From Gammaproteobacteria bacterium (lineage in GTDB: Bacteria > Pseudomonadota > Gammaproteobacteria > GCA-001735895): a DNA stretch of 64,000 nt. The stretch lies in assembly GCA_029862125.1 (NCBI GenBank), contig JAOTXY010000001.1, positions 26,025 through 90,024 on the forward strand, read 5' to 3'. Below are positions 14,038-63,517 of this stretch, piece by piece (position 1 is the first letter of the stretch; the number at the start of each line of letters is the position of its first letter). Made by a program: the position numbers and the translations under genes. The notes below the pieces were generated by a model. It saw only the letters and a list, made by a program, of their open reading frames with translations, was not told where the DNA came from and made no database searches.

Positions 14038-14125
14038 GTCATCCCCGCGAAAGCGGGGATCTTACAATGAGCCATATTTACAAGATCCCCGCTTTCGCGG
14101 GGATGACTAGCAAAGCGGGAATGAC
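14038..14125. repeat. GTCAT/CGTC-type REP doublet with partial extra end copy
   Basis: GTCATCCCCGCGAAAGCGGGGATCTT (14038-14063) and its exact reverse complement (14082-14107), followed by partial AAAGCGGGAATGAC (14112-14125). Confidence 0.9.
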
Positions 14126-19840: not shown

Positions 19841-19991
19841 TGTCATCCCGCGGCTCGACCGCGGGATCCAGTCAAATGTGGGCGATTGCAACCTGGATAC
19901 CGCGGTCGAGCCGCGGTATGACACTGAGAGGGACCAGGATCCCGATACTCCCGACCGCCGCTAAGTGGGCCGCATGCGGTCGGGGATGACG
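19841..19991. repeat. GTCAT-type REP doublet plus an inverted variant half-element
   Basis: TGTCATCCCGCGGCTCGACCGCGGGATCCAG...CTGGATACCGCGGTCGAGCCGCGGTATGACA (19841-19923), the same subtype as 44667-44751. 19938-19991 is a degenerate reverse complement of the 42214-type repeat. Confidence 0.85.
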
Positions 19992-40330: not shown

Positions 40331-40685
40331 ACTACCTGTTTACCTGTTAGCGTTGTGGGCGCTCGCTACTGCTTCGGCATTCGGCGCAGAATCCGCGATC
40401 CTGGGTCTGAGCAATAATCCGTTCAGCCGGCCCGAGATATTCAATGCACCGCCACCGCCTCCGGCCAGTCAGGCAGACGTGTTGCCGCCCGAGCAAGTAG
40501 AGCTCAACCTGACCGCAACCATGGTTTCTGAAATCGCGCCGATGGTGATTGTCGACGGTGAGCTGTTGGCCATCGGTGACAAGATAGAGGGTCTGAAATT
40601 AATTGCGGTCAAGGAGGGCGAAGCAATTTTTACCCGCGCTGGCAAGAAATATTCCTTCGAGATAAAAAAGCAGGGGCAGAAATGA
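40320..40685 (+). CDS. Small exported PilP/MshK-like protein
   Basis: Signal peptide, NPF followed by a Pro-rich linker, then a beta-domain (LTATM...IVDGELLAIGDKIEG); between pilO and the secretin gene. Confidence 0.6.
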   Translation: MTPKLPVYLLALWALATASAFGAESAILGLSNNPFSRPEIFNAPPPPPASQADVLPPEQVELNLTATMVSEIAPMVIVDGELLAIGDKIEGLKLIAVKEGEAIFTRAGKKYSFEIKKQGQK

Positions 40686-40733
40686 AGCGGGCCGAATTGA
40701 AATTCGAAGACGTAGGCCTCGATCCCGCTACGA

Positions 40734-40833
40734 GTCATCCCCGCGCAAGCGGGGATCTTGAAATGGCTCCTGGTTGCAAGATTCCAATAAGTCAACCCAG
40801 CGTGCGCTGGGGGGCCACGTGCGCGGAAATGAC
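40734..40833. repeat. REP doublet at the secretin 5' end
   Basis: Left half GTCATCCCCGCGCAAGCGGGGATCTTG; right half CAAGATTCC...CGTGCGCGGAAATGAC interrupted by a small hairpin (CCCAGCGTGCGCTGGG). Confidence 0.75.
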
Positions 40834-42184
40834 TGAAATGGTTATCTTTAGATACCGGTTGTTGCCGTTGCTTATGCTGCTTATCCTTTTGGCGATAACG
40901 CCAAACGCGCAAGCCGGCAAGATATCGCTCTCTGTCGATGAGCTCGATATCCGCGAGGTGATGCAGATGCTGTCGCGCGAGCAACGCATGAACATATTTG
41001 TTGCCGATGGAGTCAGCGGTGATGTCTCGGTTAATCTTTATGACATGGACACGGCCGAGGCGGTAAAGCTGATTGCCGAATCCGCTGGTTTCGTGGTCGA
41101 GCAACGTAACGACAGTTTTTTTATTATCGAACGCGATGACGCCGGCAAACTGCGGCAAAGCGACAGCCTCGAAGTGCGCGCCTTCAAGATACAGTATGCC
41201 TCGACCGGCGAGGTCGAAACCATCCTGCAGGAATATGTTTCCGAGTTGGGCAACATCAAGGCATTGGAAGAAAACAATATGCTCGTGATCGAGGACTTGC
41301 CATCCTTCCTCGATAAAATGGAAACGCTGCTCGGTGAAATCGATCGCGAGCCGAAACAGATCATGATCGAGGCCAAGATCCTCGAGATCACACTTACCAA
41401 CAACCAGTCCTACGGGCTCGACTGGGCCAAACTGTTCGACAGTTCGGATGGTACCGGCAGTCTGGGTACCCAGGGACTGGCCAATCCGAATTCAGCAGGA
41501 TTGTTTGCGCAATATACCAACAGTAACGTCGACCTGGTGTTGAATGCATTGAAAGAGCGCGGGCGCCTGCGCACGATTTCGACACCGAAGCTGCTCGCCA
41601 TGGAAGGGCTCGAAGCGGAATCGGTGGTCGGTGCTGAAATCGGTTACCAGGTAACAACAACGATCAACAATGTTAGTACCGAGAGTGTCGAATTTCTCGA
41701 GACGGGCGTTATTCTCAAGGTGACTCCGACGGTCGATCGCAGCGGTCGCATCTTGCTCGATATCCTCCCCGAGGTCAGTACCGGCTTCGTCAACGACGAT
41801 GGTATTCCTTCCAAGTCAACCACGCAGGTGTCAACGCACATGCTGGTACCTGACGGTAAAACCGTGTTTCTAGGTGGCCTGATTCAGAACCAGGTCAATA
41901 ATACCCGCGAGGGAATTCCTGGTTTGGGCGATGTGCCGATTATCGGCGGGCTGTTTTCGAACCGATCGCAGAATATTGTCAGTACCGAAATCGTGGTGCT
42001 GATCACGCCGCGCATTGTCGATTACGCCAACGACGAGCCCAGAGTACCGGCGATCGACCGCGTCGAACTCATTAACGAAATCATCGATGCGGAGCTGGAC
42101 AACACCGAGAAGGACCTGGCAAAAACCTTCGACGGCGAATCCTCAACAGGCACGCCCGACGACTTCGGCGGTAATAGAAAGTAA
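40829..42184 (+). CDS. Outer-membrane secretin (PilQ/GspD/MshL family, short form)
   Basis: Signal peptide ending AQA, N-domains, QIMIEAKILE, STPKL, TGVILKVTP, IPGLGDVPIIGGLF, VLITPRIV. Start ambiguous (40682, 40829 or 40838). Confidence 0.9.
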   Translation: MTEMVIFRYRLLPLLMLLILLAITPNAQAGKISLSVDELDIREVMQMLSREQRMNIFVADGVSGDVSVNLYDMDTAEAVKLIAESAGFVVEQRNDSFFIIERDDAGKLRQSDSLEVRAFKIQYASTGEVETILQEYVSELGNIKALEENNMLVIEDLPSFLDKMETLLGEIDREPKQIMIEAKILEITLTNNQSYGLDWAKLFDSSDGTGSLGTQGLANPNSAGLFAQYTNSNVDLVLNALKERGRLRTISTPKLLAMEGLEAESVVGAEIGYQVTTTINNVSTESVEFLETGVILKVTPTVDRSGRILLDILPEVSTGFVNDDGIPSKSTTQVSTHMLVPDGKTVFLGGLIQNQVNNTREGIPGLGDVPIIGGLFSNRSQNIVSTEIVVLITPRIVDYANDEPRVPAIDRVELINEIIDAELDNTEKDLAKTFDGESSTGTPDDFGGNRK

Positions 42185-42190
42185 TTCCTG

Positions 42191-42260
42191 CGTCATCCCC
42201 GCAAACTTTACTTCGTCATCCCCGCGTAAGCGGCGGTCCGACGTATCGGGATCTTGCAAC
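42191..42260. repeat. CGTC-type REP left half (with partial tandem copy) next to the GIY-YIG gene
   Basis: CGTCATCCCCGCGTAAGCGGCGGTCCGACGTATCGGGATCTTGCAAC at 42214-42260, identical to 42676-42722 and over 46 nt to 52100-52145; partial copy at 42191. Confidence 0.9.
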
Positions 42261-42268
42261 TATTTGAG

Positions 42269-42565
42269 CTAACCCAGGATGTCTGCATAAAGATCCGTCC
42301 AATCCGGATTCATGGATTCGATTAACTCGATCTTCCAGTCACGGTTCCATTTTTTTATCTGCTTTTCTCGAATAATCGCAGTGTAAATATCCGCATGTTG
42401 CTCGTACCAGACTAAACAGTCAGCATTGTATTTCCTGGAAAATCCATCGACCATCTTTTGCTTATGTTGCCAGATGCGATATTTCAGATTTGAAGTTACA
42501 CCGGTGTAGAGGACACCTTGGGGTTTGCTCGCGAGCAGGTAGACACAGGGAGATTCCCGATCCAT
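42269..42565 (-). CDS. Small stand-alone GIY-YIG endonuclease-family protein
   Basis: CVYLLAS...LYTGVTSNLKYRIWQHK...LVWYE...AIIREKQIKKWNRDWKIELIE..NP.W.DL keeps the Tyr, Arg, His and Glu residues of the family; purine-rich RBS upstream. Confidence 0.9.
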   Translation of the reverse strand: MDRESPCVYLLASKPQGVLYTGVTSNLKYRIWQHKQKMVDGFSRKYNADCLVWYEQHADIYTAIIREKQIKKWNRDWKIELIESMNPDWTDLYADILG

Positions 42566-42617
42566 TTCTTCTTCCTTGAAGAGATAAGGACCATGAATAC
42601 TAGCATGATCTTGTTAC

Positions 42618-42722
42618 GAGATTCCCGCTTGCGCGGGAATGACATCAAAATTCCATCATCCCCTCAGGGTTACCCCGTCATCCCCGCGTAAGCGGCGGTC
42701 CGACGTATCGGGATCTTGCAAC
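42618..42722. repeat. REP right half followed by another left half
   Basis: GAGATTCCCGCTTGCGCGGGAATGAC (42618-42643), a spacer containing AAAATT, then the 47-nt left half at 42676-42722. Confidence 0.9.
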
Positions 42723-42735
42723 TTTTGCACTTTAT

Positions 42736-44517
42736 TTAGCTTCCCTTTTGGGGACGCATGTCGGCCGGATCGATGCCGGCCACTGCAACCGGCGCCTTCA
42801 TCGCATCGCGGCGGAAGGGCTCGCCCAGTTCCTGGTTGAGCACGACTTCGATAAAGGTGGTGACATTGTCTTCCATCTGTTCCTTAACTGCGGTTTTCAG
42901 CGTCTCGGTGAGGCCTTCCATGGTTTCCGCCTTAACCCCCTTGACGCCGCAAGCCTCGGCGACCTTCGCGTACTCGACACCAACGTTGAGCTCGGTGCCG
43001 ACGAAGTTATCGTCGTACCACAGCGTGGTGTTGCGTTTTTCTGCGCCCCACTGGTAATTGCGGAAGATGATCATCGTGATCGCCGGCCAGTCGTTGCGCC
43101 CGCAGGCGGTCATCTCGTTCATCGCGATACCGAAAGCACCATCGCCGGCGAAACCGATCGCCGGTACGTCGGGACGGCCGATCTTGGCGCCGAGAATCGA
43201 CGGCAGGCCATAGCCGCAAGGGCCGAACAGACCGGGTGCCAGGTACTTGCGGCCTTCCTCGAAGCTCGGGTAGGCGTTGCCGATGGCGCAGTTGTTGCCG
43301 ATGTCGGACGACATCATCGCATTCTCCGGCATCGCCTGCATGATCGCCTGCCAGGCCTGGCGCGGGGACATGCGCTCCGGATCACGCGCACGGGCGCGCT
43401 CGTTCCAGGTGATGCCCTCGTCGTTGTCTTCCTCGTAAATCATTTCTGCCAGTTCGCGCTGCCAGTTGTCCCTGGTCTCGGCGATCAGGGCTTTTCTCGC
43501 GTCTCGTCCCGCTTCACCGGCTGTATCGGAGAGTTGCGCGAGAATCTGCTCGGCCACTCGCTTCGCATCGCCCTGGATTGCGACATCGACCTTCTTCGTC
43601 AGTCCGATACGGCTGGCGTTGATATCGACCTGGATAACCTTCGCGTTCTTCGGCCAGTAATCGATGCCGTATCCCGGTAACGTGGAGAAGGGGTTCAGCC
43701 GGGTACCGAGCGCAAGCACGACATCGGCTTTGGCAATCAATTCCATGGCTGCCTTGGAACCGTTGTAACCGAGCGGACCGGCCGCGAGCGGGTGCGAGCC
43801 CGGGAAGGCGTCGTTGTGCTGGTAGTTACAACACACCGGTGCGTCGAGGCGTTCGGCGAGGTGCTTTGATGCTTCGATCGCGCCGCCGAGGACAACTCCG
43901 GCGCCGTTCAGGATCACCGGAAACTCTGCTGTGGATAATAGTTCGGCGGCACTGGCAATCGCATCGGCACCACCTGGTGAGCGCTCGAGCCGGACTACCT
44001 GCGGCAGATCGATATCGATGACCTGGGTCCAGTAGTCGCGCGGGATGTTGATCTGTGCCGGCGCGCTGCCGCGCCAGGCGTTTTCAATGACACGGTTCAG
44101 CACCTCGGCAATGCGCGTCGGATCGCGTACTTCTTCCTGGTAGCAGACCATGTCTTCGAACAGCGCCAACTGCTTGACTTCCTGGAAACCGCCCTGGCCA
44201 ATGGTCTTGTTGGCCGCCTGCGGGGTTACCAGCAGCAGCGGCGTGTGGTTCCAGTAGGCGGTGATGATCGGGGTGACGAAGTTGGTAATGCCCGGGCCGT
44301 TCTGTGCGATCGCCATCGACATTTTACCGCTTGCACGAGTGTAGCCATCGGCGCTCATGCCGGCGTTGCATTCGTGTGCGCAATCCCAGAACTTGATACC
44401 CGCCTCGGGGAACAGGTCGGAAATCGGCATCATTGCCGAGCCGATAATGCCGAAAGCATGCTCGATACCGTGCATCTGCAGAACCTTGATGAATGCCTCT
44501 TCAGTAGTCATTTTCAT
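42736..44517 (-). CDS. xsc: Sulfoacetaldehyde acetyltransferase (ThDP-dependent)
   Basis: MKMTTEEAF, FGIIGSA, AQNGPGITN, GLFGPCGYG, GDGAF, NYQWGAEKRN, ELGEPFRRDAM; taurine gene context. Confidence 0.96.
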   Translation of the reverse strand: MKMTTEEAFIKVLQMHGIEHAFGIIGSAMMPISDLFPEAGIKFWDCAHECNAGMSADGYTRASGKMSMAIAQNGPGITNFVTPIITAYWNHTPLLLVTPQAANKTIGQGGFQEVKQLALFEDMVCYQEEVRDPTRIAEVLNRVIENAWRGSAPAQINIPRDYWTQVIDIDLPQVVRLERSPGGADAIASAAELLSTAEFPVILNGAGVVLGGAIEASKHLAERLDAPVCCNYQHNDAFPGSHPLAAGPLGYNGSKAAMELIAKADVVLALGTRLNPFSTLPGYGIDYWPKNAKVIQVDINASRIGLTKKVDVAIQGDAKRVAEQILAQLSDTAGEAGRDARKALIAETRDNWQRELAEMIYEEDNDEGITWNERARARDPERMSPRQAWQAIMQAMPENAMMSSDIGNNCAIGNAYPSFEEGRKYLAPGLFGPCGYGLPSILGAKIGRPDVPAIGFAGDGAFGIAMNEMTACGRNDWPAITMIIFRNYQWGAEKRNTTLWYDDNFVGTELNVGVEYAKVAEACGVKGVKAETMEGLTETLKTAVKEQMEDNVTTFIEVVLNQELGEPFRRDAMKAPVAVAGIDPADMRPQKGS

Positions 44518-44645: not shown

Positions 44646-44800
44646 TGTCATGCCGCGGCTTTCTGCTGTCATCCCGCGGCTCGACCGCGGGATCCAGGAA
44701 TGCACTCATATAATTTACAACTGGATACCGCGGTCAAGCCGCGGTATGACAGGGTAATTGATCGGGCTGTATGACAGGGTAATTGATCGGGCGGTATGAC
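44646..44800. repeat. GTCAT-type REP doublet with tandem end duplications
   Basis: Doublet at 44667-44751 (same subtype as 19841), partial left copy at 44646, and GTATGAC repeated at a 25-bp period (44744, 44769, 44794). Confidence 0.88.
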
Positions 44801-51331: not shown

Positions 51332-51420
51332 CAAACCGAGGTACATTCCCGAGTTATATACTCGGGAATGTACCTCGGTTTGTCATCCCGGAAACGCCGC
51401 CAGGCGTTATCCGGGATCTT
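51329..51420. repeat. Perfect 26-bp palindrome fused to a GTCAT-type repeat
   Basis: TGACAAACCGAGGTACATTCCCGAGT (51329-51354), 5-nt loop, exact complement (51360-51385) running into GTCATCCCGGAAACGCC...GGCGTTATCCGGGATCT. Confidence 0.85.
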
Positions 51421-51675: not shown

Positions 51676-52020
51676 ATGCCTCACTGTATTATAGATTACT
51701 CCCCGGAGGTTGCAGGACAGATCGATATCGATATCCTGCTCGATGCGGTGCACCAGGGCGCAATGGAGTCGGATCTGTTCCCTGAATATGACATTAAAAC
51801 CCGCGCGCTCGCTTACCCGCACCATCGCACCGGGCAAACCCGTGATTCATTTGTCCATGTCGCGCTGCACCTGCTTTCCGGGCGCAGCGACGCACAAAAA
51901 TCGATGCTCAGCGAATGCGTACTCGGCCGCATCGAGCCGCTGTTACCGCGAGTCGTCAGCGTCAGCGTGGAGATCCTCGATATTCATCGCGAGAGCTACC
52001 GCAAGCGCGTACTTGAATAG
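51676..52020 (+). CDS. 5-carboxymethyl-2-hydroxymuconate isomerase-like tautomerase
   Basis: N-terminal catalytic Pro (MPHCIIDYS), DIKTRA, FVHV, LSGRS; RBS AGGAG. Confidence 0.82.
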   Translation: MPHCIIDYSPEVAGQIDIDILLDAVHQGAMESDLFPEYDIKTRALAYPHHRTGQTRDSFVHVALHLLSGRSDAQKSMLSECVLGRIEPLLPRVVSVSVEILDIHRESYRKRVLE

Positions 52021-52043
52021 GTACCATACTGTCATTCCGGTAT

Positions 52044-52185
52044 AAGATTCCCGCTTGCGCGGGAATGACTCCTAAAATTGCATCCCCGCAGACTTAAGCC
52101 GTCATCCCCGCGTAAGCGGCGGTCCGACGTATCGGGATCTTGCAATAGAGGCGCGTTATGAGATTCCCGCTTGTGCGGGAATGAC
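52044..52185. repeat. REP cluster including a gene-less copy of the GIY-YIG-flanking pair
   Basis: Right half 52044-52069, partial left copy at 52081, left half 52100-52145, 14-nt spacer, right half 52160-52185. Confidence 0.9.
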
Positions 52186-52196
52186 TCCAAATAACA

Positions 52197-53222
52197 TTAT
52201 TCCGAATGACAGGTCTCATGGAAGGCCTCATGTGCCTCGCTGCATGTAATTCCCTGCAGCCTCTCAAGCAGGTCCCAGCTCTGCTGCTGGTCAATACTGA
52301 GGTAGTCGTTGTCGGGTTCAAGTCGGCGTTGATGGGCACAGATACAGACGCTCATGCACAGGCGCATACAGATCAGGTCGAAAAGCAGGCCGATCTCGGT
52401 TGCGGTCAGTGGCAGTGCCCGGTGGTAGCCACCCACCAGTGCTTGCGCGGCACGCAGCGGATCCGGTTCGTCAAGCATCGCGTAGGCGGCGGCGATTGCC
52501 GGTTCTACCACGAGCCATAAATCCAGCATATCGCCGAAATCGATAATGCTGAGTACCTGCTGACCGCTGTCATCCACAATAACGTTTTGTCGATTGGCGT
52601 CGTTATGGATGACGGCACGTCTGAGCTCATTTTGTACCGGCAGCACGCGTTCGCGAAAGCCATCTTCGAAATGTTCAACCAGTGAGCGTTCGGCGGTACC
52701 CGTCAGCAGGGGTTTATAGTCCTCGAGCACCGCCATTGCCGATTCCATGTTCCACAGCAGGGGTCGCTCCAGTCCCGGGTGCGAAAACCCGGCAAGTGCC
52801 TGGTCGAGTAGCGCGAGCCGCCGTCCCAGGTCCCCCAGCAACTCCGGTTTTGACTCGTCGAAGTCGGCCCACAGATGTCCGTCGATGAATGGCAGTGCAC
52901 GACAGTAATGTTCGTTGTCCTGCGTGTCGCGTGCCGTTTCGATGAGGTTTCCTTTAACCGACTCAAGCGCCGTTGCGACCATTGGAAATACCTGTGCCTC
53001 GGCCAGTCTTTGAAACACCTGGTGCTGACATTCGAGCATCGCCGGCGATTCCTGGGCGTTGGCAATCTTGAAAACGAATCTGCCGCGTGCGTCATCAATC
53101 AGGAAATTCAAATCGCGTTCGCCGTGGAGTTGCTTCATCGCTCCTTCGAGCGCAAACAGACGCCGCGCAATTTCGGCAACTTCGGTTGCATCGAACTCCG
53201 GTAATAAGCAGCTATCTGACAT
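52197..53222 (-). CDS. APH/choline-kinase-fold phosphotransferase (hydroxylysine/homoserine kinase type II-like)
   Basis: GERDLNF, FVFKIAN, IHNDANRQN, IIDFGD. Confidence 0.8.
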   Translation of the reverse strand: MSDSCLLPEFDATEVAEIARRLFALEGAMKQLHGERDLNFLIDDARGRFVFKIANAQESPAMLECQHQVFQRLAEAQVFPMVATALESVKGNLIETARDTQDNEHYCRALPFIDGHLWADFDESKPELLGDLGRRLALLDQALAGFSHPGLERPLLWNMESAMAVLEDYKPLLTGTAERSLVEHFEDGFRERVLPVQNELRRAVIHNDANRQNVIVDDSGQQVLSIIDFGDMLDLWLVVEPAIAAAYAMLDEPDPLRAAQALVGGYHRALPLTATEIGLLFDLICMRLCMSVCICAHQRRLEPDNDYLSIDQQQSWDLLERLQGITCSEAHEAFHETCHSE

Positions 53223-63346: not shown

Positions 63347-63517
63347 CGTCACCCCAGCTTTCCCGTCATCCCCGCGGTTCTACCCCGTCATCCCCGCGCA
63401 AGCGGGGATCTTGCAATGGTGGCTGGTTAGAAGATCCCCGCTTACGCGGGGATGACGAGTAAAAATATCGGGATGACGACAAAAATATGGGGATGACAGT
63501 TAAAAAGCGGGATGGCG
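63347..63517. repeat. REP doublet with decaying tandem end copies on both sides
   Basis: Doublet 63386-63457; partial left copies at 63347 and 63364; right-side GATGAC/GATGGC at 63451, 63472, 63492 and 63511. Confidence 0.9.

What the first reader, a model, noticed from the sequence alone, without database searches (positions are those of the whole stretch)
42191..42722. GIY-YIG nuclease gene inside a CGTC-type palindrome pair, with an empty copy of the same pair elsewhere: candidate RAYT-like element using a different enzyme
Seen: the 98-aa GIY-YIG gene fills the space between a left repeat (42214-42260) and an inverted right repeat (42618-42643). At 52100-52185 the same left repeat (identical over 46 nt) and the same right repeat (one mismatch) enclose only 14 nt, and the bases just inside the right repeat are similar (GTTAC vs GTTAT). 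Related doublets sit at 14038, 19841, 40734, 44667, 51381 and 63386. Established: GTAG-type REPs are flanked and processed by HUH-family RAYT transposases; I know of no equally established mobiliser for GTCAT/CGTC-type palindromes. Inference: this is a gene-carrying (autonomous) form and the short doublets are its non-autonomous derivatives, so the nuclease may nick or recognise the hairpins and drive their spread or maintenance.
Basis: partly seen in the sequence, partly recalled or inferred. Interest (0 to 1): 0.82.

Follow-up and report, generated by a model that had tools for sequence, protein, structure and literature searches.

The report
Ssn nuclease gene inside hairpin repeats
A small DNA-cutting enzyme gene sits between copies of the hairpin repeats that its protein family is already known to recognise, so this is a new example of a system published in 2025, not a new kind of element.

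Summary
A 98-aa single-domain GIY-YIG gene (42269-42565, minus strand) lies inside an inverted pair of CGTCAT-tagged hairpin repeats. The same pair, without the gene, occurs at 52100-52185.

It is not new in kind. Chenal et al. 2025 (PMC11893778) described the Ssn family: ~94-aa GIY-YIG nucleases whose genes are flanked by these hairpins (NTS/SRM). Neisseria SsnA binds them only as single-stranded DNA and cuts a few bases upstream.

The window's protein is 53% identical, without gaps (E 2e-38), to the 94-aa N. gonorrhoeae orthologue. It keeps the residues that paper mutated. That paper's own SRM pattern matches the hairpin just upstream of the gene.

New here:
- Collinear relatives show filled sites (2) and empty sites (7) at this gene junction.
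- Non-coding doublets are present or absent at orthologous sites.
- Doublets have a fixed tags-outward geometry, and the gene cassette shares it.
- Protein distance and hairpin stem sequence co-vary.

Whether the nuclease actually spreads the repeats (the RAYT-like idea, already raised in that paper's Discussion) remains untested. Genomes with many repeats but no ssn gene argue against strict dependence.

The parts
42269..42565 (-). ssn gene: 98-aa single-domain GIY-YIG nuclease (Ssn family)
   Evidence: The ORF is listed. Pfam PF01541 matches at E 8.5e-14 over residues 6-79. It is 53% identical, ungapped, E 2e-38, to the 94-aa N. gonorrhoeae SsnA orthologue. Y9, Y20, R30, E67 and N86 are conserved. 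The AlphaFold model has pLDDT 93.7 and its best PDB matches are GIY-YIG folds.
42617..42644 (-). Repeat B: canonical SRM/NTS-type hairpin (TGTCATTCCCGCGCAAGCGGGAATCTCG), on the gene's strand, ending 51 nt upstream of the ATG
   Evidence: It matches the published SRM search pattern. It folds with an 8-bp stem and 4-nt loop at -9.0 kcal/mol, z -3.4. The stem ATTCCCGC is the commonest stem next to homologues (57 of 85 copies).
42214..42259 (+). Repeat A, copy 1: SRM hairpin split by a ~15-nt insert, inverted relative to the gene, 9 nt past the stop codon
   Evidence: It is an exact 46-nt repeat. At the corresponding places a congener (L027) has the unsplit form CGTCATCCCCGCGMAAGCGGGGATCTTGCAA. 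It folds as two small hairpins with z -1.0, so the canonical stem is broken.
42676..42721 (+). Repeat A, copy 2: with copy 1 it brackets gene plus B as a direct repeat (57 nt, 95% identical, 462 nt apart)
42185..42202 (+). Half-site: a copy of the tag and 5' arm only (TTCCTGCGTCATCCCCGC)
   Evidence: Direct-repeat family D2.
42597..42605 (-). Possible extended -10 element TGCTAGTAT (inference only), with a ribosome-binding site AAGGAAG at 42571-42577
   Evidence: Read. The same TGCTAGTAT is kept upstream of the homologues in L003 and L027. The simple sigma-70 scan found no consensus promoter.
52046..52185 (.). Gene-less B - A - B group: B at 52046-52069 (-), A at 52100-52145 (+), B at 52162-52185 (-). 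A and the second B form an ordinary tags-outward doublet with a 16-nt spacer
   Evidence: The orthologous site holds an unsplit doublet in G064 and nothing (8 nt) in G051.
14038..14107 (.). Non-coding tags-outward doublet of the same family (stem ATCCCCGC)
   Evidence: It folds as one 28-bp hairpin at -36.3 kcal/mol, z -12. It is absent at the orthologous site of G051, where the intergenic region is 49 nt.
63387..63456 (.). Non-coding tags-outward doublet of the same family, followed by ATGAC half-sites up to about 63500
40734..40756 (+). Single hairpin of the same family upstream of the secretin gene

Best explanation
This is an ssn locus. The gene encodes a member of the Ssn family of small single-domain GIY-YIG nucleases. 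The flanking CGTCAT-tagged hairpins are its cognate Ssn-related motifs (SRM; in Neisseria NTS/dRS3; the 'CGTC REPs' of Di Nocera 2013).

By homology to N. meningitidis SsnA (inference, not shown here), the protein binds the folded hairpin only when the DNA is single-stranded, on one strand only, and hydrolyses the strand a few bases 5' of the CGTC tag.

In this genome the hairpins come mostly as inverted doublets with the tags pointing outward, and the gene sits inside one such doublet. The predicted cuts would therefore fall at the two outer borders, one on each strand (inference).

The only tested biological role of the family is cutting incoming single-stranded DNA that carries the motif, which lowers transformation. 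I take that, or nick-stimulated recombination among repeats, as the likely activity here.

The cassette and the doublets are gained and lost between relatives. Whether the enzyme causes that is open.
For: Protein:
- 98 aa, GIY-YIG only.
- 49 of 92 residues identical, no gaps, E 2e-38, to the 94-aa N. gonorrhoeae protein. That protein has Y6, Y17 and E64, exactly the residues mutated in the paper, and an NTS starting 3 nt after its stop codon.
- Y9, Y20 and E67 are invariant in 34 aligned homologues.
- The model has a GIY-YIG fold, pLDDT 93.7.

DNA:
- The paper's SRM pattern hits B at 42617-42644. It hits 9 places in the window and 86 in the genome, against about 27 expected from first-order Markov simulation.
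- B and the unsplit form fold as 8-bp/4-nt hairpins.

Association:
- Of the 80 best relatives fetched (from at least 552 found), 67 had 500 bp or more on both sides. Of those 67, 53 have at least one SRM within 500 bp and 35 have one on both sides. Shuffled flanks gave 0 and 0. Density is 1.68 per kb near the gene against 0.10 per kb distally.
- Geometry: the nearest upstream hairpin is on the gene's strand in 53 of 68 cases, and the nearest downstream hairpin is inverted in 58 of 74. This is the same tags-outward form as 26 of 30 adjacent hairpin pairs in this genome.
- Co-variation: Mantel r 0.354 between protein distance and stem Hamming distance; 0 of 2000 permutations reached it.
- Within the genus, ssn is found in 18 of 23 genomes with 10 or more type-1 hairpins against 13 of 38 with fewer (Fisher p 0.0013; kin are not independent).

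Published biochemistry and genetics: PMC11893778, sections read.
Against: - Specificity is inferred from 53% identity to a neighbour of the tested protein, and I never saw the N. meningitidis sequence itself.
- CDD (cd10448) could not be run.
- The downstream repeat A fails the published SRM pattern because of its insert, and its canonical stem is predicted to be broken. By the strict pattern, only one side of the gene carries an SRM.
- This genome holds a second hairpin family (27 copies, stems ATCCCGCG/ATACCGCG) but only one Ssn-type gene. One enzyme per repeat family does not hold simply.
- Five congeners have 11 to 54 type-1 hairpins and no ssn match. Two of them, G021 (54 hairpins) and G065 (28 hairpins), are 94% complete.
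- A role in transformation is shown only in Neisseria. Competence of this organism is unknown.
Confidence: 0.85

Rival explanations
1. Autonomous element. The hairpin-ssn-hairpin cassette is a mobile unit. The gene-less doublets are its non-autonomous derivatives, as REPINs are to RAYTs. Ssn nicking drives the copying of both into new intergenic sites. This is compatible with the best explanation as to what the enzyme is; it differs on what the enzyme is for.
For: - Filled against empty orthologous sites: among 9 genus loci where the secretin and ThDP-enzyme genes are adjacent, 2 carry ssn (G000; G064 at 89% identity) and 7 have 150-250 nt without it.
- G007 has an empty site here and an ssn elsewhere.
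- The 16 genus loci examined fall into at least 3 different chromosomal locations; 7 more share no flank with any other.
- Doublets at 14038 and 52046-52185 are absent at the orthologous sites of collinear G051.
- The gene replaces the ~16-25 nt spacer of an ordinary doublet with both hairpin tails intact.
- Gene plus B is bracketed by direct repeats of whatever hairpin type is resident, in three genomes (G000, G064, G007).
- The three A copies are 100% identical, while G064 has unsplit copies at the corresponding places. This implies recent copying or conversion.
- Homologues at 56-68% identity with the same ATTCCCGC stem occur across many phyla.
Against: - GIY-YIG nucleases hydrolyse and leave no covalent protein-DNA intermediate, so they cannot by themselves rejoin strands as HUH transposases do (established knowledge).
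- The predicted cuts lie on opposite strands at the two borders, not on one strand as in IS200/IS605 (inference and the paper).
- Gain and loss could equally come from ordinary homologous recombination between repeats.
- Congeners keep 11 to 54 hairpins without a detectable ssn, and others keep only fragments or copies with stop codons.
- The gene is single-copy here.
- It was found in only 32 of 72,556 plasmid records (31 non-mobilizable large replicons) and 0 of 50,697 phage records.
- Metagenome contigs gave no clean excision joint. The 'skips' of about 360 nt carry other letters in between and have sides under 30 nt, so they are other doublets.
Confidence: 0.25
2. Domesticated host function only. 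The enzyme is a host tool that restricts or trims incoming or exposed single-stranded DNA at the motifs, as shown for Neisseria transformation. It plays no part in the origin or spread of the repeats.
For: This is the only experimentally shown role. An ssnA knockout raises transformation about 5-fold with NTS-bearing DNA, and the effect is lost when the NTS are mutated (PMC11893778, results read). The gene is single-copy. It is vertically kept at the same site in G000 and G064, with divergence like its neighbours' (ssn 89%, secretin 96%, ThDP enzyme 90% amino-acid identity).
Against: - It does not explain why the gene itself sits inside a doublet in most homologues.
- It does not explain the patchy presence in the genus: 30 of 60 congeners, several with stop codons or fragments.
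- It does not explain the different chromosomal locations.
- Competence of this uncultured organism is unknown.
Confidence: 0.3
3. Chance neighbourhood. The gene merely lies in a repeat-prone intergenic region between two convergent genes and has no functional link to the hairpins.
For: This junction is a repeat hot spot. All 7 empty sites carry unrelated or related palindromes or terminators. Of 80 randomly fetched loci bearing the Neisseria NTS consensus, none holds an ssn homologue.
Against: - Flank enrichment is 53 of 67 against 0 of 67 shuffled, and 17-fold over distal DNA.
- The orientation rule holds across homologues.
- Protein and stem co-vary.
- Specific binding and cleavage are published.
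Confidence: 0.02

Closest known systems
Ssn family / SsnA of Neisseria meningitidis with its NTS (dRS3-containing) repeats; Chenal et al., Nat Commun 2025, PMC11893778
   Same: Both are single-domain GIY-YIG proteins of about 94-98 aa. The window's protein is 53% identical to the gonococcal orthologue, with Y, Y and E conserved. The gene is flanked by CGTCAT-tagged 8-bp hairpins, and B differs from the NTS consensus only at its first base and in the tail. Hairpins cluster near the gene: 12 of 97 lie in this 64-kb window, which is 1.7% of the genome.
   Different: The host is an uncultured gammaproteobacterium from sediment, not Neisseria (title of the closest named relative; runs). It carries only about 100 hairpins, not hundreds. 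The hairpins are mostly neat inverted doublets. The downstream and outer flanking copies are a split form with a nested 15-nt module. Activity and any role in transformation are untested.
CGTC-tagged REP superfamily (Di Nocera, De Gregorio, Rocco, BMC Genomics 2013, PMC3733652)
   Same: The repeats share a terminal CGTC/TGTC tag, 8-bp stems starting with AT, 4-nt loops and mostly inverted dimers. That paper equates its CGTC-1 family in Neisseria with dRS3.
   Different: [quoted passage not shown] The Ssn paper's text holds no 'Nocera', 'REPIN' or 'RAYT' (term search). The two literatures are therefore not explicitly joined, although the repeats are the same by sequence.
REPtron: RAYT (IS200/IS605-type HUH Y1 transposase) flanked by GTAG-tagged REPs, with REPIN doublets
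   Same: A single-copy gene sits inside an inverted pair of tagged hairpins. The genome-wide non-coding copies are mostly inverted doublets that fold into one long hairpin. Recognition is of single-stranded hairpins (paper).
   Different: The enzyme is unrelated: GIY-YIG, with no HUH or Y1 domain. The tag is CGTC, not GTAG. The chemistry is hydrolytic, without a covalent intermediate (established knowledge). Mobilisation has not been shown.
UPF0213 / YhbQ-type small GIY-YIG proteins (e.g. PDB 1zg2, BH0048)
   Same: Size and fold are the same, and 1zg2 is the best Foldseek match (E 5.1e-3, probability 1.00, 24% identity).
   Different: It is a separate family. This genome's own YhbQ-like gene (L052:1480-1746, 88 aa) is not matched by the window's protein at E <= 0.01. 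It abuts the preceding gene and has no flanking hairpins. The same holds for the 91-aa N. lactamica protein.

Membership tests
Ssn nucleases (cd10448, GIY-YIG_unchar_3; PMC11893778) | Small single-domain GIY-YIG protein (the paper kept proteins of 150 aa or fewer) | tested here: met
   98 aa. The only Pfam hit is GIY-YIG, over residues 6-79, E 8.5e-14.
Ssn nucleases (cd10448, GIY-YIG_unchar_3; PMC11893778) | BLASTP hit to N. meningitidis SsnA with E < 1e-10 and at least 75% query cover (the paper's criterion) | tested here: met
   Tested by proxy. It carries Y6, Y17 and E64 and is flanked by NTS. Result: E 2e-38, 49 of 92 identical, 92 of 98 residues aligned.
Ssn nucleases (cd10448, GIY-YIG_unchar_3; PMC11893778) | Catalytic residues whose mutation abolished cleavage (Y6, Y17, E64 in Nm SsnA) | tested here: met
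   Y9, Y20 and E67 align with them and are invariant in 34 homologues.
Ssn nucleases (cd10448, GIY-YIG_unchar_3; PMC11893778) | At least one SRM (pattern HGTCWYN(0-2)YYVSBRHN(0-5)WNVSBRGN(0-2)RNCYNB) within 500 bp of the gene | tested here: met
   B at 42617-42644 (-) matches, 51 nt upstream of the ATG.
Ssn nucleases (cd10448, GIY-YIG_unchar_3; PMC11893778) | SRM on both sides of the gene (true of 42% of homologues in the paper, so typical rather than defining) | tested here: inconclusive
   The downstream copy A has tag, 5' arm, loop and tail, but its 3' arm is split by a ~15-nt insert, so the strict pattern does not match. In G064 the corresponding copy is unsplit.
Ssn nucleases (cd10448, GIY-YIG_unchar_3; PMC11893778) | Top CDD assignment is cd10448 | not testable with these tools
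   No CDD library was on hand. NCBIfam gave no family.
Ssn nucleases (cd10448, GIY-YIG_unchar_3; PMC11893778) | Strand-specific binding of the hairpin as ssDNA only, with cleavage a few nt 5' of it | not testable with these tools
   This needs purified protein and oligonucleotides.
CGTC-tagged REPs (PMC3733652) | Unpaired CGTC/TGTC tag, 8-9 bp stem beginning with AT, 4-5 nt loop, mostly inverted dimers | tested here: met
   B and the unsplit type-1 copies have tag (C/T/A)GTC, stems ATTCCCGC or ATCCCCGC and 4-nt loops. Of 30 adjacent pairs, 26 are tags-outward.
REPtron / RAYT (IS200/IS605 Y1 HUH transposases) | HUH motif and catalytic tyrosine transposase domain | tested here: not met
   Pfam finds only GIY-YIG. 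The fold matches are UPF0213, Slx1 and UvrC N-terminal domains.
REPtron / RAYT (IS200/IS605 Y1 HUH transposases) | GTAG-tagged REPs flanking the gene | tested here: not met
   The tags are CGTC/GTCAT.
GIY-YIG homing endonucleases (I-TevI type) | Nuclease domain joined to a separate DNA-binding domain; the gene lies in an intron or free-standing in phage genomes | tested here: not met
   98 aa with a single domain. There was no match in 50,697 phage records at E <= 1e-10.

The most novel reading that the evidence does not exclude
The hairpin-ssn-hairpin cassette is the master copy of a REPIN-like population. On this reading, Ssn is the long-missing mobiliser of the whole CGTC-tagged REP superfamily, a question open since Di Nocera 2013. 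It would work not by HUH strand transfer but by nicking the outer border of a tags-outward doublet on each strand. Host replication or repair would then copy or convert the unit into new intergenic sites. That would be a second, mechanistically independent route to REP-type repeats in bacteria.
Probability: 0.25. Interest if true: 0.7.

Novelty: new member of a known kind. Interest (0 to 1): 0.3.

Why it matters
It was established experimentally in 2025, so the finding does not open a new class.

What this locus adds is a clean natural comparison set: a genus of collinear genomes with filled and empty cassette sites, doublets present or absent at orthologous places, several hairpin families, and genomes that keep repeats without the gene.

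That set makes the open question testable by comparative and mobilome sequencing. The question is whether Ssn spreads its repeats, or was recruited by the host to police single-stranded DNA.

The locus also ties the Ssn motifs explicitly to the older 'CGTC REP' classification, whose missing partner enzyme was an acknowledged gap.

Tried and rejected
- PDB by sequence: the only hits were spurious WD40-repeat proteins. No solved Ssn structure was seen.
- NCBIfam: no family for this protein or for the YhbQ-like paralogue.
- Fetching Neisseria ssnA through loci that carry the NTS consensus: 0 of 80 loci held an ssn homologue, so I went through whole genomes instead.
- N. lactamica and N. mucosa, N. 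polysaccharea and N. uirgultaei: no match with this query. The small GIY-YIG gene of N. lactamica is of the YhbQ type.
- Simple promoter scan: no sigma-70 consensus. The extended -10 I name is inference only.
- Public runs: contigs of three sediment runs reproduce the filled form.
  - The many 'skips' of 356-367 nt between A and B have sides of 21-28 nt and other letters in between. They are other doublets, not excision products.
  - One X1 contig joins 42138 to 42772 with unknown content between. It may be a strain with another intergenic region, but this is too weak to use.
  - Runs holding small shares of the words were not interpreted.
- One of six folds (L027:2960-3010) used a wrong coordinate and is ignored.
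- Rejected idea: that A is simply an inverted copy of B. It is a different stem variant (ATCCCCGC against ATTCCCGC) and carries a nested module.
- Rejected idea: that the 52.1-kb pair is an excision scar. It has the spacing and tails of ordinary doublets.
- Supplementary data of PMC11893778 (lists of homologues and genomes) could not be read, so I cannot say whether this lineage is already listed there.
Full report
**What is there**

Between the 3' ends of two convergent genes lies a 98-aa ORF on the minus strand, at 42269-42565. The neighbours are a secretin (40682-42184, +) and a thiamine-diphosphate enzyme (42736-44517, -). The ORF's only Pfam domain is GIY-YIG (E 8.5e-14, residues 6-79).

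- Nine bases past its stop codon lies repeat A (42214-42259, + strand, so inverted relative to the gene).
- Fifty-one bases upstream of its ATG lies repeat B (42617-42644, on the gene's strand).
- A second, identical copy of A follows at 42676-42721.
- Gene plus B are therefore bracketed by 57-nt direct repeats, 95% identical and 462 nt apart.

At 52046-52185 the same elements occur as B - A - B without a gene. Neither repeat is expected by chance: the shuffle expectation was 0.00 for both. Contigs from three public sediment runs reproduce 42232-42719, or parts of it, without a difference.

**What the repeats are**

B reads TGTCATTCCCGCGCAAGCGGGAATCTCG. It has a GTC tag, an 8-bp stem beginning with AT, a 4-nt loop and a C tail. 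It folds at -9.0 kcal/mol, z -3.4.

A is the same kind of hairpin with stem ATCCCCGC, split by about 15 nt in its 3' arm.
- A congener (G064, locus L027) has unsplit copies CGTCATCCCCGCGMAAGCGGGGATCTTGCAA exactly where G000 has A, on both sides of its ssn gene. It also has an unsplit copy at the orthologue of the 52.1-kb site.
- With the insert, the canonical stem is predicted to be lost (two small hairpins, z -1.0).

A census of GTC-tagged 8-bp hairpins in the 3.7-Mb genome gives 97 of the AT-starting families:

| Stem | Copies |
|---|---|
| ATCCCCGC | 35 |
| ATTCCCGC | 22 |
| ATCCCGCG | 18 |
| ATACCGCG | 9 |
| Minor types | remainder |

- Of 30 adjacent pairs, 26 have their tags pointing outward, 1 inward and 3 the same way. 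Another 38 hairpins are unpaired.
- Twelve of the 97 lie in this window, which is 1.7% of the genome.
- A doublet folds as a single 28-bp hairpin (z -12).
- The gene occupies the place of the 16-25 nt spacer of such a doublet, with both hairpin tails intact.

**It is a published system**

A full-text search for 'GIY-YIG' with 'repetitive extragenic', and with 'dRS3', found Chenal et al., Nat Commun 2025 (PMC11893778). I read its introduction, results parts 1-3, discussion and two methods sections. It reports the following:
- It defines the Ssn family: single-domain GIY-YIG proteins of about 94 aa, CDD cd10448.
- N. meningitidis SsnA binds the hairpin CGTCATTCCCGCGMAVGCGGGAATCYRG (NTS, which contains dRS3) only as single-stranded DNA, on one strand only.
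- SsnA cuts a few nucleotides upstream of the hairpin.
- Y6A, Y17A and E64A abolish cutting.
- A knockout raises transformation about 5-fold with NTS-bearing DNA.
- 71% of homologues have such a motif (SRM) nearby, and 42% have one on both sides.
- Its Discussion already notes that NTS-ssnA-NTS looks like an insertion sequence, and compares it with REP-associated transposases.

**Membership tests**

- I could not obtain the N. meningitidis protein itself.
- Through a Neisseria repeat I reached the N. gonorrhoeae DSM 9188 genome. It holds one match: a 94-aa ORF with Y6, Y17 and E64, and an NTS beginning 3 nt after its stop codon.
- The window's protein aligns to it over 92 residues without a gap: 53% identical, E 2e-38, with Y9, Y20 and E67 in register.
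- Y9, Y20 and E67 are among the 11 invariant positions in 34 aligned homologues, as is N86; R30 is kept in at least 90%.
- The AlphaFold model (pLDDT 93.7) has the GIY-YIG fold. Its best PDB neighbours are UPF0213 BH0048, Slx1 and the UvrC N-terminal domain. No Ssn structure appeared.
- The paper's SRM pattern matches B. It gives 9 hits in the window and 86 in the genome, against about 27 expected.
- It does not match A, because of the insert.
- CDD assignment and enzyme activity could not be tested.

**Replication of the association on independent data**

- At least 552 relatives exist in the species-representative genome collection. The best 80 are 56-89% identical and come from many phyla.
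- Of the 67 loci with at least 500 bp on both sides, 53 have an SRM within 500 bp and 35 have one on both sides. Shuffled flanks gave none. Density is 1.68 per kb near the gene against 0.10 per kb at 500-1500 bp.
- For the next two counts I used 101 homologue copies. I had dropped three loci (L018-L020) that duplicate others, and hits with fewer than 71 aligned residues.
- 85 of the 101 copies have a GTC-tagged hairpin within 500 bp. The stem is ATTCCCGC in 57 of them.
- Protein distance and stem distance correlate (Mantel r 0.354; 0 of 2000 permutations reached it). Relatedness inflates such tests.
- The nearest upstream hairpin is on the gene's strand in 53 of 68 cases. The nearest downstream one is inverted in 58 of 74. 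The tags-outward cassette seen here is therefore the rule.

**Gain and loss**

Contigs from G064 and G051 are collinear with the whole window.

Of 25 loci holding the orthologous ThDP-enzyme gene, 9 also have the secretin gene alongside.
- Two of these carry ssn: G000, and G064 at 89% identity.
- Seven have 150-250 nt without it.
- One of the seven (G051) retains a half-site, a B and a split hairpin with a different insert.
- G007 is empty here but has an ssn elsewhere, again as direct repeat - ssn - B - direct repeat.

Sixteen genus loci fall into at least three chromosomal locations, and seven more share no flank with any other.

Non-coding doublets behave likewise. The doublet at 14038 and the group at 52046-52185 are absent from the orthologous sites of G051 (49 nt and 8 nt). 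The type-2 doublet at 44668-44750 is present in all three genomes.

Across 61 genomes of the genus, ssn is found in 18 of 23 with 10 or more type-1 hairpins and in 13 of 38 with fewer (Fisher p 0.0013; kin are not independent).
- Five genomes with 11-54 hairpins have no ssn match; of these, G021 (54 hairpins) and G065 (28) are 94% complete.
- Seven genomes with no type-1 hairpin carry ssn matches. In the four whose loci I read (G004, G015, G018, G020), other hairpin types flank the gene.
- Several copies are fragments or carry stop codons.

The gene is rare on plasmids: 32 of 72,556 records, of which 31 are non-mobilizable large replicons. It is absent from 50,697 phage records.

**How it most likely works**

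- Shown elsewhere, inferred here: the protein recognises the folded, tagged hairpin in single-stranded DNA and hydrolyses the strand just 5' of the tag.
- Inferred from geometry: in a tags-outward doublet or cassette these cuts fall at the two outer borders, one on each strand.
- Inferred: such nicks, or simply recombination among the repeats, account for three things. These are the turnover of doublets and cassette, the direct repeats that bracket gene plus B, and the identity of the three A copies where a relative has unsplit copies.
- Not shown: that Ssn copies anything. GIY-YIG chemistry gives no covalent intermediate for strand transfer (established knowledge), and repeats persist in genomes without the gene.
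- I therefore file the locus as an Ssn/SRM system (confidence 0.85). I keep 'autonomous mobiliser of CGTC REPs' as the boldest reading still allowed (about 0.25).

**Relation to older work**

Di Nocera et al. 2013 (PMC3733652; abstract, the CGTC-families section and term-search passages read) classified exactly these repeats as CGTC-tagged REPs. They equated CGTC-1 in Neisseria with dRS3 and concluded that these repeats 'apparently lack a dedicated transposase'. A term search of the Ssn paper finds no 'Nocera', 'REPIN' or 'RAYT'. Searches for 'SsnA' with 'GIY-YIG', and for 'GIY-YIG' with 'REPIN' or 'RAYT', found no further paper joining them.

**Verdict**

This is a new member of a known kind. 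The supplements of the Ssn paper could not be read, and they may already list this lineage.

Noticed in passing
window 42233-42247, 42695-42709, 52119-52133; G000-wide: The ~15-nt insert that splits repeat A is a copy of a lineage-specific 16-nt module, CCGAT[AG]CGTCGGACCG. G000 holds 44 copies with at most 1 mismatch. It is nested in the 3' or 5' arm of type-1 hairpins, in type-2 hairpins, and in two other repeat families (about 9 and about 5 copies). Only 1 of the 80 best relatives' loci carries it: L055, the 89%-identical one. Its function is unknown.
   Followed up: partly
window 19842-19922 and 44668-44750: There is a second hairpin family (stems ATCCCGCG/ATACCGCG, GCTCGAC in the loop; 27 copies in the genome) that forms the same tags-outward doublets. 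The one at 44668 is conserved in G064 and G051. Only one Ssn-type gene was found in this 91%-complete genome, so this family is either orphan or cross-recognised.
   Followed up: partly
window 63457-63500; L010 and L014 flanks; the G064 orthologue of window 52020-52200: Tandem arrays of 3'-arm half-sites ending in ATGAC, with a period of about 21-36 nt, adjoin full hairpins. Examples: five units in G064 and about eight in L010.
   Followed up: no
G000:C68, locus L052:1480-1746: A second small GIY-YIG gene (88 aa) of the YhbQ/UPF0213 type starts 9 nt after the preceding gene and has no flanking hairpins. The window's protein does not match it at E <= 0.01.
   Followed up: partly
window 40682-40913: The mechanical secretin ORF starts at 40682 and so includes the hairpin at 40734-40756. 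Alignments to G064 and G051 break at 40667-40913. The real start is probably further downstream, near the hydrophobic MVIFRYRLLPLL stretch, which would make the hairpin intergenic.
   Followed up: no
G004:C111:4509-5268, G022:C331:8123-8814, G023:C175:1499-2364: Tandem pairs of divergent ssn genes (42-57% identical to the window's) sit at a shared site. G005 and G001 have single copies at the same site.
   Followed up: partly
G003:C18:154-438, G049:C1:1105-1380, G051:C58:10441-10623, G081:C19:5666-5944: Some ssn copies carry in-frame stop codons (1 TAA; 1 TGA; 4 stops; 1 TGA). Several other matches cover only about half of the protein. This suggests decay in some lineages.
   Followed up: no
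window 51382-51417: A single long-stem tagged hairpin, GTCATCCCGGAAACGCCGCCAGGCGTTATCCGGGATC, occurs here and is also present in G064. The same long type flanks the ssn genes of G007 and G010.
   Followed up: no
window 42138 / 42772 in run X1: One metagenome contig joins the secretin 3' end to the ThDP-enzyme 3' end, skipping 633 nt with unknown content between (side 35 nt). It may be a co-occurring strain with a different or empty intergenic region.
   Followed up: no
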